NCBI GenBank assembly: GCA_963600315.1
Contig: CAVCAW010000029.1
Span: forward strand, 7,919-71,918
From: Bacteroidaceae bacterium
GTDB lineage: Bacteria; Bacteroidota; Bacteroidia; Bacteroidales; Bacteroidaceae
Length of the DNA: 64,000 nucleotides
Direction of reading: 5' to 3'
The number at the start of each line of letters is the position of its first letter. Position 1 is the first letter of the stretch. The notes beneath the pieces were generated by a model, which saw only the letters and a list, made by a program, of their open reading frames with translations, did no database searches and was not told the DNA's origin. Of the stretch, positions 2,228 to 52,951 are shown in pieces. The translations under genes were made by a program, and so were the position numbers.

Positions 2228-4045
2228 TCAGTCTTGCGGCAGCGGAGCACATGCCTTCTGCAGCCATGCGCAGTCTGCCTCGTCGTTGAGAAGTGGCAGC
2301 AGAGTGTCGGCTACCGTCTTGTGATAGTCGTTGAGCCACGCCGTCTCAGTGGGTGTCATCATCGTGGTGTCGATCAGTCGTGTGTCGATGGGGCATAGGG
2401 TGAGTGGTTCAAAGCCCACAAACTTGCCAAACTCGGTCTCCTGGTGCGCCACGCAGAGCAGCACATTCTCTATGCGCACACCAAAGCGTCCCTCCAGATA
2501 GAGTCCTGGTTCGTCGGTCACGGTCATGCCTTCCACTATGGGCGCCGGCATATAGTTCATGCGTATCTGGTGAGGACCCTCGTGCACATTGAGGTGAGCG
2601 CCCACACCGTGACCTGTGCCGTGGCCGAAGTTATAGCCCTCCTGCCACATAGCGTAGCGCGCTGCGAGGTCGAGTTGTGTGCCGCTGGCTCCGCTCGGAA
2701 ATTTCAGGCGGCTCAGGGCTATGTGTCCCTTGAGCACCAGCGTGTATACCTTCTTCTGCTCTGGGGTAGCCTCGCCGCCCAGCAGCATGGTGCGAGTGAT
2801 GTCGGTGGTGCCACAGGTGTATTGTGCCCCAGTGTCCACCAGCAGTATTCCCTCTGCCTTGAGAGGCACGTCGGTCTCGGGTGTCGGTTCGTAGTGTACT
2901 ATCGCTCCGTGGGCATTGTAGGCGGAGATGGTGTCGAAGCTGAGTCCCTCGAAGTCGCCGTAGGCTTGGCGCAGCGACGTCAGTTTGCGGTCTACCGACA
3001 ATTCGGTCTCACCACCCTGGGGCACTGCCTCCTGCAACCACCTCAGCCACTTCACCAGTGCCACACCGTCTTGCAGCATGGCTTGCTTCATACCTCTCGC
3101 TTCAGCCTCGTTCTTCACTGCTTTCATAGCGGCTATCGGAGAGTCAGCCACCACGCACTGGTCTTCAGGCTCATCGCAGATCACAGCTGCGTCGAGTCGC
3201 AATGCCGCCAATGCCACATTGGTGAGCGGCGAGAGCATCACTGTTCCCTCTGCCTTGGCAAGCGAGGCTGTCACCATGTCGTAGGGATAGACACTTACTT
3301 TGTTACCATCAAGATATGCCTTGATCTCACTGCTTATCTTACTGCTGTCGCAATAGAGGGCTGTCTCCTTGCGGCTCACAATGCAGTAAGCCACAAATAC
3401 GGGATTGCAGTGCACGTCGCCACCACGCAGGTTGAGCAACCATGCCACTTCGTCGAGCTGACTGACGAGGATACTGCTGCACCCCTTGCTCTCTACGGCG
3501 TCCATCAGCCTCGCCACCTTGCTGCCAACGGTCTCGCCAGCCCACTCCAAAGGCTGTATCGCCACGGGCACACACGGCAACGGCGGTCTGCCGTCAGTCC
3601 ACAAGTCATCGGCAGCACTGTAGTCCGCCACAAGCTCAATGCCGCTCTCCGCCAGTTCGTCTTGCAGAGCGGTCGCCTCCCCATAGGTCACCAGATTGCC
3701 GTCAATGCCCACGCAGTCCTTAGTACTAAGTTGGGCGGCGAGCCACAGGGCTATCGACGGAGTGCCCTCCACTCTCTCCTTCATAAGTTCAAAGGGAGTG
3801 TCCTTCAGTGCTTCGGCAGCGGCTATGAAGTAGCGGGAGTCGGTCCACAGGGCAGCAGCGTCGAGCGTCACTACCGCCGTGCCGGCACTGCCTTCAAATC
3901 CGCTTATCCACTGGCGACACTGCCAGTGGTCGGGTATGTATTCACCCGCATGGGGGTCGGTCGACGTGAATACGTAGGCTGACAGCCCTTTCTGCTTCAT
4001 CCATTGGCGCAATGCTGCCACTCGGTCTGCGATGTCCTGTTTCAT
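2228..4045 (-). CDS. Aminopeptidase P family (M24B Xaa-Pro aminopeptidase) protein
   Basis: The tracked ORF extends to 4351, but a plausible start is the ATG at 4045 (MKQDIADRVAALRQWMKQKGLSAYVF...). Creatinase-like N-terminal region plus M24 pita-bread motifs (DTGAQY, GHGTGHGVGAHLNVHEGP, TDEPGLY, IENV). The upstream 306 nt read through a non-coding repeat array. Confidence 0.9.
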   Translation of the reverse strand: MKQDIADRVAALRQWMKQKGLSAYVFTSTDPHAGEYIPDHWQCRQWISGFEGSAGTAVVTLDAAALWTDSRYFIAAAEALKDTPFELMKERVEGTPSIALWLAAQLSTKDCVGIDGNLVTYGEATALQDELAESGIELVADYSAADDLWTDGRPPLPCVPVAIQPLEWAGETVGSKVARLMDAVESKGCSSILVSQLDEVAWLLNLRGGDVHCNPVFVAYCIVSRKETALYCDSSKISSEIKAYLDGNKVSVYPYDMVTASLAKAEGTVMLSPLTNVALAALRLDAAVICDEPEDQCVVADSPIAAMKAVKNEAEARGMKQAMLQDGVALVKWLRWLQEAVPQGGETELSVDRKLTSLRQAYGDFEGLSFDTISAYNAHGAIVHYEPTPETDVPLKAEGILLVDTGAQYTCGTTDITRTMLLGGEATPEQKKVYTLVLKGHIALSRLKFPSGASGTQLDLAARYAMWQEGYNFGHGTGHGVGAHLNVHEGPHQIRMNYMPAPIVEGMTVTDEPGLYLEGRFGVRIENVLLCVAHQETEFGKFVGFEPLTLCPIDTRLIDTTMMTPTETAWLNDYHKTVADTLLPLLNDEADCAWLQKACAPLPQD

Positions 4046-4104
4046 GTGTGTATGTCTTGTTTTTGTATTTCGGTTTGTGGCAAGCCACACTGACTTGCCA
4101 AAGG

Positions 4105-4112
4105 CAAAGTTA
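4105..4112 (-). promoter_or_regulatory. Candidate Bacteroides-type -7 promoter box (TAACTTTG on minus strand) for the aminopeptidase gene
   Basis: Exact match to TAnnTTTG, about 60 nt upstream of the ATG at 4045. Confidence 0.45.
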
Positions 4113-4226
4113 CTAAGTCCGCACCGTATTGCACCACCCACAGCCACAAAAAATCTTTCAGCGTCAGCCCAGCGTGATGCCACATGGCGGTTGCAACATC
4201 TGCCGTGCTTTAAACGCACAGCAACC

Positions 4227-4345
4227 TTTCCGCCGAAATTTTTGTTGTCGTCGTTTGGGAATTTCCGCGGAAATTGAATTGCGTTTCGGGGGAAATTGAT
4301 ATCCGTTTCAGCCGAAATTTTCATCAATTTCCGCGGAAACGCAAT
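4227..4345. repeat. Phased 22-bp repeat array, copy 1 (cores TTTCSGSSGAAA)
   Basis: Cores TTTCCGCGGAAA (4262), TTTCGGGGGAAA (4284), TTTCAGCCGAAA (4306) and TTTCCGCGGAAA (4328) start exactly 22 nt apart. An extra core TTTCCGCCGAAA sits at 4227, 35 nt upstream. Related arrays occur at 40521-40608 and 52761-52849. Confidence 0.9.
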
Positions 4346-4400
4346 TTTCAAATGGGCATTACATTGTTGAATGATGAAGATTTTTCTTGACCATGAGTTG

Positions 4401-4480
4401 TTCTAAGTGCCGAAAATGTGTATCTCTGCACGAAAGATGTACCAAAAATGTGAGCAATCACACATTTTCGGAACTTAGAA
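4401..4480. repeat. 21-bp inverted repeat (one mismatch) with a 38-bp spacer
   Basis: Left arm ttctaagtgccgaaaatgtgt (4401-4421). Right arm acacattttcggaacttagaa (4460-4480), which is the reverse complement except for one base. The AAAATGTG word recurs in the spacer. Confidence 0.8.
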
Positions 4481-5548
4481 TAAATTCAACCACACCGACG
4501 CATTAAATAAAGGAGATAGGAACATGTTCAACAGAAGCATAATGAAAGAATTAGAGGTGTGATTAGACGACAAGATGGCAAACACCCCACTCTTCCTTGC
4601 CGACCGTACTAAGGTAGTGATTCAAGGGTGCTGACTTGTCATGGGGCATCGCAGGCCAGCATGAGCGTTGGGGCGGTCCGTAAAAACATTTGGGGAGTTT
4701 CGAAAGGGCACCAGGGTGTGTTGAGCGGGTAATTGTATGCAAAAACGACGCAAACTTGACATATTTTTTGCGTTTTCATGCAATTTATCACGATTTTACT
4801 TGTTCTATTCGGGGAAAGCGGTACATTTGCAGCATAATAGCGGAGTTTTGAAAACCGGATTGTATGATTTGGATTTTATTCTCAGTTTTTGCAATTTGCG
4901 TGATTGTCCACGACAAAGCTATGGGTCGTGCCGGGCACGGCGAGTGTGACTATAGCGACAGGGGATATTGGCTGCTCAACAGCGAGAAGTGCCCCAATGA
5001 TGCCGGAAGGTTCTACAGAGACAACGGAAGGGAATGTGATTGCAATGGATGGTATTGCAATCACAACGAAAGACATTTCGACAGCAAGACAGCCTTTCCA
5101 CTTAATGTTGCTTCGTGTGGCAATGAGGTGAGCCCATTCTACGGGGGCATTTTTTACCACTTTGTCGGCATCTTCTCTTACCTTATTATATTAGTGAGGC
5201 GATGCTTGGCTATACCCACAACGCAGTTTATCCACCTGGGGGGGGTAAAATTTCAACAAACAAGACTATTGTTTCAGCGAACGGAGAGACTGTCTTGGCG
5301 AACGAGGACAACGAGGACGTGCGAGAGTCTTTCGACAGCATTGTTATACACTCCAGCGCAGCTGCCAGACACAGAAACACGCAGGCAGAACACGGCAAAT
5401 CATCTAAATTTACTAAAAATGGCATTATTGCGCTGCGGCCTTTATGTTTTTGCTCCCTGATTTTTGTAAACCGAAACTTCACTGATTTTGTAGCAGTTAT
5501 ACGCTCTTTTTTTAACAAAAAGCTTTTTGCCGTATAAGGAATTAGCAG

Positions 5549-5556
5549 TAATTTTG
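5549..5556 (+). promoter_or_regulatory. Candidate -7 promoter box (TAATTTTG) for the pilus operon
   Basis: Exact TAnnTTTG, 47 nt upstream of the ATG at 5603. Confidence 0.45.
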
Positions 5557-5602
5557 CAGCTCGTTTCAGGAAGTATACATAAATATTGAGATTTTGAATA
5601 AC

Positions 5603-40436: not shown

Positions 40437-40444
40437 CAAAGTTA
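40437..40444 (-). promoter_or_regulatory. Candidate -7 promoter box (TAACTTTG on minus strand) for tyrS
   Basis: Exact TAnnTTTG, 49 nt upstream of the ATG at 40388. Confidence 0.45.
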
Positions 40445-40520
40445 CACAATCTTATCCCAATAAGCTGTGGCAATGGTGCGAAATGTTGGTTTTGACCATT
40501 GGGGTGGTTGACCGGACTCA

Positions 40521-40608
40521 TGCGTTTCCGCCGAAATTGATATGCGTTTCGGGCGAAACCGATATCAATTTCCGCGGAAATTGACAACCGTTTCGGCGGA
40601 AACGCAAT
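40521..40608. repeat. Phased 22-bp repeat array, copy 2 (cores TTTCSGSSGAAA)
   Basis: TTTCCGCCGAAA (40525), TTTCGGGCGAAA (40547), TTTCCGCGGAAA (40569) and TTTCGGCGGAAA (40591), with exact 22-nt spacing. Cores 1 and 4 are exact reverse complements. Confidence 0.9.
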
Positions 40609-40648
40609 CGTCGTCTCAATCTCCGCAGAGAGCAGAGTGCGCTGAAAT

Positions 40649-48790: not shown

Positions 48791-49163
48791 GCCGGCAATA
48801 AGCCGTGCCCCCAAGATGACATTGCTATAGCCACGATGCTGTCATAGCCGCAAATTGATGACCGCCGCATTGCTGGTCTGCAGAACTGCATTATAGAGCA
48901 GCGGAACTGCAATACAGATCAACAGTGTCGCTTTACTGTATAATGAGCTACATTGTAGGACAACGGCACTGCACTACAGGACAACAACACTCATTACAAA
49001 AAAGCAGAACGTCTACTAGTTTGTCTGAAGTAGTTTGTCTGAAGAGCCAAAACAACGCTCTAAGACAGCGATAGGTCACTGTATTTTGAAAGGGGAGTGA
49101 CAACACTCTCTCCTCATAACAAAAACTGTCTACCCCATAACAGGAAACATTCTACCTCATAAC

Positions 49164-49208
49164 AAAAAAAGCGCCCTCCGATGCAATTTAGTATCGGAGG
49201 GCGCTTTT
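49164..49208. terminator. Bidirectional rho-independent terminator between the convergent GT2 and tyrosine-kinase genes
   Basis: A7, gcgccctccgat (49171-49182), 10-nt loop, atcggagggcgc (49193-49204), TTTT. Confidence 0.8.
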
Positions 49209-52608: not shown

Positions 52609-52760
52609 ATAAAACTTTTTCGATTATGAACGAATTTGTCCAGCAAAGATAGAATTGGCAACAACAGAAGGACAACGGGCAGCACCACATCGATTCAGAA
52701 AGCGTTGAGTGGCGAGACACACAAAGCCTTCATAGCGTGCCACACGGAGCCTTCTCACCA

Positions 52761-52849
52761 GTGCGTTTCCGCCGAAATGGTTATCAATTTCGGGCGAAAC
52801 GTGCTACAATTTCGGGGGAAACGGAGTTCGATTTCCGCCGAAACGCTAT
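52761..52849. repeat. Phased 22-bp repeat array, copy 3 (cores TTTCSGSSGAAA)
   Basis: TTTCCGCCGAAA (52766), TTTCGGGCGAAA (52788), TTTCGGGGGAAA (52810) and TTTCCGCCGAAA (52832), with exact 22-nt spacing. Confidence 0.9.
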
Positions 52850-52907
52850 TGTGAGGTGGTGACTTCTGGGCATCGGCTCAGGCAGATGTTGACGACGGCA
52901 GTTCATG

Positions 52908-52951
52908 AAAAATCCCCCGGCTGTCTTGGAGAATACAGCCGGGGGATTTTT
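52908..52951 (-). terminator. Rho-independent terminator of the pyrophosphatase gene
   Basis: aaaaatcccccggctgt (52908-52924) and acagccgggggattttt (52935-52951) form a 17-bp stem that includes A/T runs. Confidence 0.8.

What the first reader, a model, noticed from the sequence alone, without database searches (positions are those of the whole stretch)
40521..40608. Dispersed family of exactly 22-bp-phased repeat arrays with palindromic TTTCSGSSGAAA cores (three copies in this window)
Read directly from the sequence. Four 12-nt cores, TTTCCGCCGAAA (40525), TTTCGGGCGAAA (40547), TTTCCGCGGAAA (40569) and TTTCGGCGGAAA (40591), start exactly 22 nt apart.

The same architecture recurs at 52766/52788/52810/52832 and at 4262/4284/4306/4328, with a fifth out-of-phase core at 4227. 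The core is an (im)perfect palindrome, and cores 1 and 4 of this copy are exact reverse complements.

Spacers are also related between copies: ttgatatgcg / ttgatatccg / ttgaattgcg, and ccgatatcaa / tggttatcaa / ttttcatcaa. This gives alternating unit types, and every array ends GAAACGCWAT on the + strand.

All three arrays are intergenic and share one orientation. Each lies 133-203 bp upstream of the ATG of a minus-strand gene (aminopeptidase P, tyrS, wza-like) and 77-153 bp upstream of that gene's TAnnTTTG -7 box.

A 22-bp period is about two helical turns, so all cores face one side of the helix. That is what cooperative binding of a dimeric DNA-binding protein would require. However, the downstream genes are functionally unrelated, which fits a REP/BIME- or MITE-like selfish or architectural element equally well. 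I do not recognise it as a described Bacteroidota repeat or operator.
Basis: partly seen in the sequence, partly recalled or inferred. Interest (0 to 1): 0.75.

Follow-up and report, generated by a model that had tools for sequence, protein, structure and literature searches.

The report
Mobile intergenic four-palindrome repeat element
The three 22-bp-phased palindrome arrays are real, but they are the conserved centres of small non-coding repeat elements scattered through intergenic DNA of some uncultured gut and rumen Prevotellaceae, and close relatives lack them at the same sites, so they are not shared operators of the neighbouring genes.

Summary
Cores sit at 4262/4284/4306/4328 (plus a solo core at 4227), 40525/47/69/91 and 52766/88/810/32, with exact 22-bp phasing: 20 strand matches against 0.01 expected.

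The arrays are not gene-specific operators. Each is the centre of a longer non-coding element of about 160-340 bp, with imperfect inverted arms.

The same design (15-nt flank, four cores, 15-nt flank, about 108 bp, plus lineage-specific arms) recurs in a few uncultured Prevotellaceae/Bacteroidales MAGs. In one MAG the copies are near-identical and break contigs.

All three window arrays are missing from the orthologous intergenic regions of the nearest relatives, although the promoters and terminators there are conserved. Relatives carry elements at other sites. Copies lie in convergent, tandem and divergent intergenic regions alike.

Cores are far better conserved than spacers or arms (0.9 against 0.35-0.5 pairwise identity).

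Best reading: a MITE/BIME-like insertional repeat family whose four phased palindromes are binding sites for a dimeric protein. No transposase, target-site duplication or binding protein was found. The cores resemble ParB parS and Noc NBS sites, which is an untested lead. I found no Rfam, plasmid or literature match.

The parts
40525..40602 (.). Array B: four 12-bp cores (40525, 40547, 40569, 40591) at exact 22-bp phase, with spacers ttgatatgcg / ccgatatcaa / ttgacaaccg that alternate in orientation.
40489..40648 (.). Maximal extent of element B. This is window-specific DNA between the SprT-like stop codon (40649) and the conserved tyrS promoter block that begins at GGTGCGAAATGTT (40476-40488). 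It includes 15-nt imperfect inverted flanks: 40510-40524 GACCGGACTCATGCG and 40603-40617 CGCAATCGTCGTCTC.
   Evidence: Alignment with the relative L043. The intergenic region is 260 bp here against 121-126 bp in five relatives. Flank comparison.
52766..52843 (.). Array C: four cores (52766, 52788, 52810, 52832) at 22-bp phase.
52661..52900 (.). Approximate extent of element C (boundaries +/- about 10 bp). It is a roughly 240-bp window-specific insert between the H+-PPase terminator (52908-52951) and the conserved wza-like promoter region. The left arm carries two 20-nt direct sub-repeats (52712-52731 and 52735-52754, ...AAGCCTTC / ...GAGCCTTC). Short imperfect inverted flanks lie at 52752-52765 TTCTCACCAGTGCG and 52844-52856 CGCTATTGTGAGG.
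   Evidence: Alignment A5 with L134, L135 and L138. The intergenic region is 462 bp against 214-217 bp. Sub-repeats.
4262..4339 (.). Array A: four cores (4262, 4284, 4306 with one mismatch, 4328) at 22-bp phase.
4227..4238 (.). Solo fifth core TTTCCGCCGAAA, 35 bp (22+13) before array A and out of phase. It is probably the remnant of a further unit.
4160..4482 (.). Tentative extent of element A. The left limit is where homology to the relatives' aminopeptidase P promoter region ends. The right part contains a 21-nt-arm inverted repeat (4401-4421 / 4460-4480, 95% complementary) built of AAGTGCCGAAAATGTG-like units. These resemble the AAGTCCGCACGAAAAT arm repeats of the relatives' elements.
   Evidence: The similarity of the arms is by eye only, so these limits are uncertain.
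40437..40444 (-). Context, not part of the element: the Bacteroidota-type -7 box TAACTTTG of tyrS, which is conserved in relatives that lack the array.
52908..52951 (-). Context, not part of the element: the terminator hairpin of the H+-PPase gene, which is conserved in relatives that lack the array.

Best explanation
Each array is the conserved centre of a small, non-coding, imperfectly palindromic repeat element. The design is MITE/BIME-like: about 108 bp minimal, and 160-340 bp with arms. The family has spread by insertion into intergenic DNA of a clade of uncultured Prevotellaceae/Bacteroidales.

The four 12-14-bp palindromes RTTTC[SGSS]GAAAY are spaced exactly two helical turns apart. They are most likely four binding sites on one face of the helix for a dimeric DNA-binding protein. 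That protein could be the mobilising enzyme or, more likely given how conserved the cores are across lineages, a conserved host factor the element recruits. The inverted arms vary between lineages and are built of 21-22-bp sub-repeats. They would be the element's ends.

Shown: the repeat family, its architecture, its insertion/deletion polymorphism, its indifference to gene context, and the much stronger conservation of cores.

Inferred: protein binding, the mechanism of mobility, and which protein is involved.
For: (1) A whole-collection scan finds the two-core pattern in only 42 places in 596 Gb. Of these, 33 lie in six related MAGs. All 32 complete family arrays listed have four units.

(2) A common frame holds across lineages: 15 nt starting GAC/GAnC, then four cores, then 15 nt ending GTC. 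It is a perfect 15-nt terminal inverted repeat in L039. Copies in different genomes at non-syntenic sites share about 225 bp at 80% identity, with roughly 65-nt inverted arms.

(3) Array B is absent from five loci of relatives with 94% identical TyrRS (intergenic 121-126 bp against 260 bp). It is also absent from L047, L132/133 and 80 more distant tyrS loci.

(4) Array C is absent from five loci with 95-96% identical PPase, although the terminator and promoter there are conserved. Array A is absent from two loci with the conserved promoter.

(5) Relatives instead carry an element downstream of tyrS that the window lacks.

(6) Context counts are 6 convergent, 13 tandem and 2 divergent.

(7) Five dispersed UMGS2057 copies share the same degenerate unit, which indicates descent from a master copy.

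(8) In MAG CAVGQS01 the copies are near-identical and lie at 9 of 12 contig ends.

(9) Pairwise identity among copies is 0.90-1.00 for TTTC/GAAA and 0.69-0.85 for the core centre, against 0.42-0.49 for spacers and 0.35-0.48 for flanks. Per-position information is 1.0-1.8 bits in cores against 0.06-0.55 bits in spacers. In strain-level orthologues, 0 of 36 intact-core positions vary against 5 of 30 spacer positions.

(10) The period of 22 is not a multiple of 3, and non-palindromic GC-rich centres (CGCC, GGGC, GGGG) are tolerated. Predicted single-strand folds differ from copy to copy. This fits recognition of duplex DNA rather than one conserved RNA fold.
Against: No target-site duplication could be defined, because no filled/empty pair had alignable flanks right up to the termini.

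No transposase, RAYT or other candidate protein was found in the window or next to copies.

The interior is better conserved than the termini, which is the reverse of a typical MITE.

The three window copies are only about 45-70% alike outside the cores, so nothing shows recent movement in this genome.

For arrays A and C, loss in relatives cannot be formally distinguished from gain in the window lineage.

Most comparison sequences are metagenome-assembled and some carry wrong taxon labels.

The cores were used to find the copies, which inflates their apparent conservation. The strain-level comparison is free of that bias, but it is small.
Confidence: 0.6

Rival explanations
1. Host architectural or regulatory sites. 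The arrays are functional binding platforms for a conserved host protein and are kept by selection where they sit. Candidates are a nucleoid-associated protein or a ParB/Noc-like clamp, acting as an insulator, an upstream activating element or a nucleoid anchor. Under this reading the element-like spread is only how they arose.
For: Cores are nearly invariant between gut and rumen lineages while arms and spacers differ. No variation occurs in intact cores among strain-level orthologues. Exact two-turn phasing and a fixed number of four sites suggest a defined protein complex. The cores resemble parS and NBS.
Against: None of the three window arrays is conserved at its site in the nearest relatives. 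There is no preferred position relative to promoters or gene ends. Neighbouring genes are functionally unrelated. No candidate protein was identified.
Confidence: 0.2
2. RNA-level REP-like element. The array is transcribed as part of neighbouring mRNAs, and its hairpins stabilise 3' ends, attenuate read-through or serve as a processing site.
For: All copies fold well as single strands, with z-scores of -3.4 to -9.6. Many copies lie 46-100 nt after a gene's stop codon. E. coli REP/BIME elements are known to act this way (own knowledge).
Against: Predicted folds differ between copies, because every core can pair with every other. The stem letters TTTC/GAAA never covary but are simply invariant. 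There is no T-tract terminator. Array C lies after a separate canonical terminator. There is no Rfam family, only sub-threshold microRNA-hairpin noise.
Confidence: 0.1
3. Invertible DNA switch (Bacteroidales 'inverton'). The inverted arms would be recombination sites and the centre would flip.
For: At the same locus downstream of tyrS, the central 115 bp or more in L129 is in the opposite orientation to L130 and L128, at 95% identity.
Against: L129 ends inside the repeat at a contig end, in a MAG with many near-identical copies, so the orientation may be an assembly artefact. The centre is nearly palindromic and holds no promoter-like -7 box. No invertase gene is adjacent.
Confidence: 0.03
4. 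Plasmid- or phage-type iterons or a centromere marking an integrated replicon's origin or partition site.
For: Four contiguous 22-bp repeats is the classic iteron or centromere layout (own knowledge). One viral contig has 22-bp direct repeats with TTTCGGACGAAA cores.
Against: There are three copies in 64 kb among housekeeping genes, and no rep, par or phage genes nearby. There is no match in plasmids. The strict pattern gives no viral match.
Confidence: 0.02

Closest known systems
BrickBuilt MITE of Porphyromonas gingivalis (Klein et al. 2015, PMC4596501)
   Same: Both are from Bacteroidales and strictly intergenic. Both have a central run of tandem units of about 22-23 nt predicted to form stem-loops, flanked by non-coding arms with short terminal inverted repeats. 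Both have about 10-20 or more copies, break assemblies, sit next to housekeeping genes including tRNA synthetases, and have no Rfam match.
   Different: The BrickBuilt unit is 23 nt, AGACCATAGTATCCTCTCATATG, with no similarity to TTTCSGSSGAAA. Its copy number runs from 1 to 22.8, whereas here it is fixed at four. Its leader and tail are long and non-repetitive and end in IS5-like GAGACCTTTGCA, which is not found here. BrickBuilt is limited to P. gingivalis and P. gulae.
REP / BIME / REPIN elements of Proteobacteria (own knowledge; Di Nocera et al. 2013, PMC3733652, found)
   Same: Both are short extragenic palindromes arranged in clusters with alternating orientation. Both occur in many copies and are intergenic in any gene context. 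The palindrome is conserved while linkers vary, and no target duplication is evident.
   Different: REPs carry a GTAG or CGTC tag and are linked to RAYT transposases. Neither the tag nor a RAYT was seen here. REP stems are 20-40 nt, whereas here the conserved part is 12-14 bp. The exact 22-bp phase and the fixed four units have no REP counterpart.
ParB parS (TGTTTCACGTGAAACA) and Noc NBS (TATTTCCCGGGAAATA) sites (Jalal et al. 2020, PMC7383237)
   Same: The 14-16-bp palindrome has the same outer half-sites. GTTTC...GAAAC (parS-like) and ATTTC...GAAAT (NBS-like) both occur as flank types of the cores, and the centre is GC-rich. AATTTCCGCGGAAATT matches NBS at 12 of 16 positions. NBS sites are also dispersed around a chromosome.
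   Different: Position 7 of the half-site is G here, against C in both parS and NBS. The canonical parS is present separately in a relative (L027:4350). Noc is confined to Firmicutes. No ParB-like gene was found near copies. parS and NBS sites are single, not four phased copies inside a repeat element. The resemblance is a lead, not a test.
Correia elements (CREE) of Neisseria and ERIC/IRU of enterobacteria (own knowledge)
   Same: Both are 100-150-bp intergenic elements with terminal inverted repeats. They are present or absent between close strains, can carry host-factor (IHF) sites and affect neighbouring transcription.
   Different: Those elements have defined TA target duplications and no internal phased palindrome array. 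There is no sequence relation.
Plasmid iterons and type II centromeres, for example four tandem 20-22-bp repeats (own knowledge)
   Same: Both have four contiguous repeats at about two helical turns that are bound cooperatively by dimers.
   Different: Those are single-copy, lie next to rep or par genes, and are direct rather than palindromic or alternating repeats. Here the arrays are dispersed chromosomal copies without such genes.

Membership tests
MITE (non-autonomous transposable element) | Small (<~500 bp), non-coding, multi-copy | tested here: met
   Elements are about 108-340 bp. The 22-bp period is not a multiple of 3. There are 14 and 11 loci in two MAGs and three in this window.
MITE (non-autonomous transposable element) | Terminal inverted repeats | tested here: met
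   L039 has a perfect 15-nt inverted repeat, and L039/L003 have roughly 65-nt imperfect arms. The CAVGQS01 copies have CACTT...AAGTG ends with four ~21-bp sub-repeats per arm. The inverted repeats in the window copies are weak.
MITE (non-autonomous transposable element) | Presence/absence polymorphism at orthologous sites | tested here: met
MITE (non-autonomous transposable element) | Target-site duplication | tested here: inconclusive
   No clean filled/empty pair was available. No consistent direct repeat was seen at the ends in L039, L003 or the CAVGQS01 copies. An 11-12-nt imperfect direct repeat (GACAACGGGCAG at 52671 and GACGACGGCAG at 52889) lies inside the approximate limits of element C, near each end, and has no counterpart in the empty sites.
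MITE (non-autonomous transposable element) | Cognate autonomous element or transposase with the same ends | tested here: inconclusive
   None was found in the window or in about 0.9 Mb of fetched loci, where arm-motif clusters occur only beside arrays. Whole genomes could not be searched.
REP/BIME with RAYT | GTAG- or CGTC-tagged 20-40-nt palindrome | tested here: not met
   The position matrix covers only -5 to +16 around the 12-14-bp core and shows no tag there. No GTAG or CGTC tag was seen by eye in the flank listings.
REP/BIME with RAYT | RAYT (IS200/IS605-like) gene in the genome | not testable with these tools
None is present in the window.
BrickBuilt MITE | 23-nt unit AGACCATAGTATCCTCTCATATG in variable copy number | tested here: not met
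   Here the unit is 22 bp, has a different sequence, and always occurs four times.
BrickBuilt MITE | IS5-like termini GAGACCTTTGCA | tested here: not met
   Only a loose GAGCCTTCT motif occurs in some flanks.
ParB/Noc binding sites | 16-bp palindrome matching parS or NBS | tested here: not met
   The match is 10-12 of 16 positions. The central bases differ and half-site position 7 is G rather than C.
ParB/Noc binding sites | Bound by a ParB-family protein | not testable with these tools
   No GxRRxR-box ORF was found in the fetched loci. A biochemical test is needed.
cis-regulatory operator of a regulon | Conserved position upstream of orthologous genes | tested here: not met
Structured RNA family (Rfam) | Match to a curated covariance model | tested here: not met
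CRISPR array | Repeats of 23 nt or more separated by unique spacers of similar length, near cas genes | tested here: not met
   The cores are 12 bp, the spacers are 10 bp and related to each other, there are four units, and there are no cas genes.

The most novel reading that the evidence does not exclude
The four phased palindromes may be loading or binding sites for a conserved dimeric host protein with ParB/Noc-like specificity. The core RTTTCSG|SSGAAAY would be a third class of site beside parS and NBS. If so, a mobile element has seeded the chromosomes of these Prevotellaceae with dispersed, centromere-like or NBS-like four-site platforms that organise the nucleoid or insulate genes.
Probability: 0.08. 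Interest if true: 0.8.

Novelty: new variant of a known kind. Interest (0 to 1): 0.45.

Why it matters
Small structured repeats shape bacterial genomes. They break assemblies, seed rearrangements and can rewire neighbouring transcription.

This family appears undescribed. It has an unusually regular design: exactly four palindromes at two-turn spacing that are conserved from human-gut to rumen lineages, while the element's ends drift. That pattern points to a specific and still unknown protein-DNA complex in a poorly studied, uncultured branch of the Prevotellaceae.

It also gives a practical marker for strain-level structural variation in these organisms. It explains spurious ORF calls in these intergenic regions, such as the 73-95-aa ORFs called over the array in L044-L046.

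Tried and rejected
A T-box or other leader for tyrS is rejected: there is no Rfam hit and the array is absent in relatives.

A coding repeat is rejected: the period is not a multiple of 3, and the long TTG ORF 2228-4351 merely runs over array A.

CRISPR is rejected because the dimensions are wrong.

A replication origin or iterons of an integrated replicon is rejected: there are no rep or par genes, and no plasmid or viral match to the strict pattern.

Membership of BrickBuilt is rejected because the unit and termini differ.

A search for an autonomous partner found arm-motif clusters only beside arrays.

A search for a ParB-like ORF by its arginine box found only out-of-frame noise.

An 11-mer match of the relatives' arm (TAAGTCCGCAC) at 4114-4124 is part of the conserved aminopeptidase P promoter, not of an element.

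A resemblance of the unit to the 22-bp MuA end-site consensus (own memory) does not fit the spacing and was dropped.

The metagenome scan for tyrS returned only relatives with 79% identity or less, all without arrays. This helped as an outgroup but not for defining termini.

The genes next to the single viral contig with similar 22-bp repeats gave no Pfam or PHROG hit.

The literature search for the core sequences found only unrelated eukaryotic papers.

Full report
OBSERVATION

TTTCSGSSGAAA gives 20 strand matches in the 64-kb window against 0.01 expected from dinucleotide-preserving shuffles. Every match lies in the three arrays or at the solo core at 4227.

One core (4306) has a single mismatch. 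Tandem Repeats Finder reports period 22 for all three arrays. A profile built from the family finds nothing else in the window.

The neighbouring genes are as stated: M24 aminopeptidase P, TyrRS with a SprT-like gene upstream of it, and a Wza-like exporter with an H+-pyrophosphatase upstream of it. Because the arrays are almost palindromic, the profile scores nearly the same on both strands. 'Same orientation' therefore carries little weight.

THE FAMILY

A scan of one genome per species (596 Gb) for two strict cores 22 bp apart found only 42 places. Thirty-three of them belong to six MAGs:
- an uncultured Prevotellaceae, UMGS2057 (14 loci)
- CAVGQS01 (11 loci)
- two rumen MAGs, RGIG3638 and RGIG8180 (3 loci each)
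- CAVEQO01 and CAVHBF01 (1 locus each)

TyrRS and PPase identities (94-96%) and gene order show that CAVGQS01, CAVEQO01 and CAVHBF01 are close relatives of the window organism. Their record titles say Lactococcus garvieae, Anaerovoracaceae and Bacteroides thetaiotaomicron. UMGS2057-like genomes are at 91%.

All 32 complete arrays listed have four units.

A common frame holds in every lineage: 15 nt beginning GAC or GAnC, then four cores spanning 78 bp, then 15 nt ending GTC. In L039 these flanks are a perfect 15-nt inverted repeat.

Further out lie lineage-specific inverted arms made of 21-22-bp sub-repeats:
- In CAVGQS01 the arms are four units with AAGTSS motifs and phased A/T tracts, and the element ends CACTT...AAGTG, for a total of 300 bp or more.
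- In RGIG3638 the arm unit is GAAGTCCGCTTAAAATC.
- L039 and L003 have roughly 65-nt arms and a total of about 225 bp. They share 80% identity although their flanking genes are unrelated.

The 88-bp arrays are therefore the centres of larger elements.

NOT A CONSERVED OPERATOR

Array B. The SprT-tyrS spacer is 260 bp in the window but 121-126 bp in five loci from relatives with 94% identical TyrRS. These relatives keep the tyrS promoter block and lack the array. The array is also absent in L047 and L132/133 (90-92% identity) and in 80 more distant tyrS loci covering 305 kb. UMGS2057-like strains do have an array in this spacer, but at another distance and with unrelated flanks.

Array C. The PPase-wza spacer is 462 bp in the window against 214-217 bp in five loci with 95-96% identical PPase. 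The alignment shows a window-specific block of about 240 bp between the conserved terminator and the conserved promoter. Those 22-kb syntenic loci contain no TTTCN4GAAA at all.

Array A. Two loci at 79-80% identity keep the aminopeptidase P promoter (GGCACGGACTTAGTAACTTTGCC) but have no array.

Conversely, the 94% relatives carry a full element downstream of tyrS that the window and CAVEQO01 lack. Gene order diverges between two strains exactly at its outer end.

Across the family, copies lie between convergent (6), tandem (13) and divergent (2) gene pairs (heuristic ORF calls). The position upstream of a promoter in the window is therefore not a rule.

SIGNS OF COPYING

Five dispersed UMGS2057 copies share the same defective unit (gcc-AATCGGCCGAAA, or its complement TTTCGGCCGGTT-ggc). 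This is best explained by descent from one master copy.

In CAVGQS01 the copies are almost identical over more than 250 bp, and 9 of 12 loci end inside the element. That is the signature of a recently amplified repeat in a short-read assembly.

WHAT IS CONSERVED

Among paralogous copies, pairwise identity is 0.90-1.00 for the TTTC/GAAA arms and 0.69-0.85 for the four central bases. It is 0.42-0.49 for spacers and 0.35-0.48 for the 15-nt flanks. Information content is 1.0-1.8 bits per position in cores and 0.06-0.55 bits in spacers.

Because copies were found through their cores, this comparison is partly biased. However, four strain-level orthologues show 0 of 36 variable positions in intact cores against 5 of 30 in spacers, with about 7% in the rest of the intergenic region.

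Spacers come in two mutually complementary forms that alternate (for example ttgatatgcg and ccgatatcaa). Every core is therefore the centre of a longer imperfect palindrome.

All copies fold well as single strands (z-scores -3.4 to -9.6), but the predicted pairing differs from copy to copy. The stem letters never covary. Non-palindromic GC-rich centres are tolerated.

I read this as recognition of duplex DNA by a dimeric protein, at four sites on one face of the helix. The cores stay the same from gut to rumen lineages while the arms change. This suggests a conserved host factor rather than a fast-evolving transposase, but that is inference.

COMPARISON WITH KNOWN THINGS

There is no Rfam match at gathering thresholds in the window or in three related loci. 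At a relaxed threshold only microRNA-hairpin noise appears. There is no match in plasmids. The strict pattern gives no hit in viral contigs. Literature searches with the core sequences found nothing relevant.

The nearest described element is the BrickBuilt MITE of P. gingivalis. It is intergenic, has a central minisatellite of 23-nt units that form stem-loops, and has a leader and tail with short inverted ends. Its unit (AGACCATAGTATCCTCTCATATG), its IS5-like ends and its variable copy number all differ. This is an analogue, not a member.

REP/BIME elements share the alternating palindromes, but they have GTAG or CGTC tags and RAYT genes, which were not seen here.

One resemblance is worth testing. 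With their flanks, the cores read CGTTTCSGSSGAAACG or AATTTCSGSSGAAATT. That is the outer half-sites of ParB's parS (TGTTTCACGTGAAACA) and of Noc's NBS (TATTTCCCGGGAAATA) with a different centre. A canonical parS exists separately in a relative, so any such protein would be an additional one. None was found near copies. I treat this as a lead only.

WHAT IS MISSING

No target-site duplication, transposase or binding protein could be identified. For arrays A and C, gain cannot be formally separated from loss.

An apparent inversion of the element's centre between strains rests on a contig end and may be an assembly artefact.

Bulk MITE catalogues for Bacteroidota exist and could not be checked.

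VERDICT

The repeat is real and highly non-random. It is best explained as a MITE/BIME-like insertional element family with a four-site protein-binding core. It is a new variant of a known kind, of moderate interest. There is a small chance that it marks an unrecognised site-specific DNA-binding system.

Noticed in passing
window 5594-33224 (+ strand): A same-strand cluster of about 28 kb encodes DUF3575 and DUF5119 proteins, five proteins of 352-675 aa with no Pfam hit, a 4409-aa protein with no Pfam hit at all, and a 1134-aa Big_2 protein. It may be a fimbria or adhesin-type surface locus.
   Followed up: partly
window 4340-5600: About 1.26 kb has no convincing ORF; the 198-aa ORF at 4864-5460 has no Pfam hit. 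The region lies between array A and the surface-protein cluster. It contains a strong inverted repeat at 4401-4421 / 4460-4480.
   Followed up: partly
L129 (CAVGQS010000001.1), L043/L134 (CAVEQO010000006.1), L138 (CAVHBF010000045.1): Three public MAGs are titled Lactococcus garvieae, Anaerovoracaceae bacterium and Bacteroides thetaiotaomicron. They encode TyrRS and PPase 94-96% identical to this window in the same gene order and have Bacteroidota-type promoters. The taxon labels look wrong.
   Followed up: partly
L128:11420-11700 vs L130:11420-11720: Two strains share the element downstream of tyrS, but gene order differs from the element's outer end onward: Fasciclin/SusC/SusD in one, HU-HIG and a restriction enzyme in the other. 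The repeat may be a rearrangement breakpoint.
   Followed up: partly
L129:11434-11548 vs L130:11513-11627: The central 115 bp or more of the orthologous element is in opposite orientation in the two assemblies (95% identity on the reverse strand). It is either a real inversion between the inverted arms or an assembly artefact at a contig end.
   Followed up: partly
L032:3316-3510, L035:2189-2320, L041:7031-7130: Other Prevotella and Bacteroidales MAGs carry longer 22-bp minisatellites. Their units combine a GGGTTTCGGCCGAAACCC-type palindrome or GGTCAGGCGAGA with CTCTATAGAG-type spacers. This is a different repeat family, with the same period.
   Followed up: no
L031:2811-2910 (Hyphomicrobiales MAG), L008:1172-1215 (SAR324), L016:4949-5030: Unrelated phyla also have tandem 22-bp repeats with TTTCGGCCGAAA-like cores. 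These are direct repeats with identical spacers. The search pattern imposed the 22-bp spacing, so no link to this family is implied.
   Followed up: no
L141:7935-8115 (IMGVR_UViG_3300001598_001970): A viral contig has six or more direct repeats with (T)TTTCGGACGAAA cores, mostly 22 bp apart, inside a 1.4-kb gene-free stretch. The layout is iteron-like. Neighbouring ORFs have no Pfam or PHROG hit.
   Followed up: partly
L139:360-520: At the position where the window has array A, a relative has a different palindromic repeat (AACTCGCCAAAA...TTTTGGCGAG units, period of about 60 nt) upstream of the conserved aminopeptidase P promoter.
   Followed up: no
L027:4350: A canonical parS site (TGTTTCACGTGAAACA) lies in the close relative CAVGQS01, 4.2 kb from one of its elements.
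   Followed up: no
window 48950-49170: The gap downstream of the glycosyltransferase gene holds several short tandem repeats (21-, 14- and 22-bp periods, 2-2.5 copies each). They are unrelated to the palindrome family.
   Followed up: no
whole window: The window matches the search pattern on both strands, yet its own contig (74,929 bp in NCBI) was not among the 42 hits. The window genome is apparently not a species representative in that collection.
   Followed up: no
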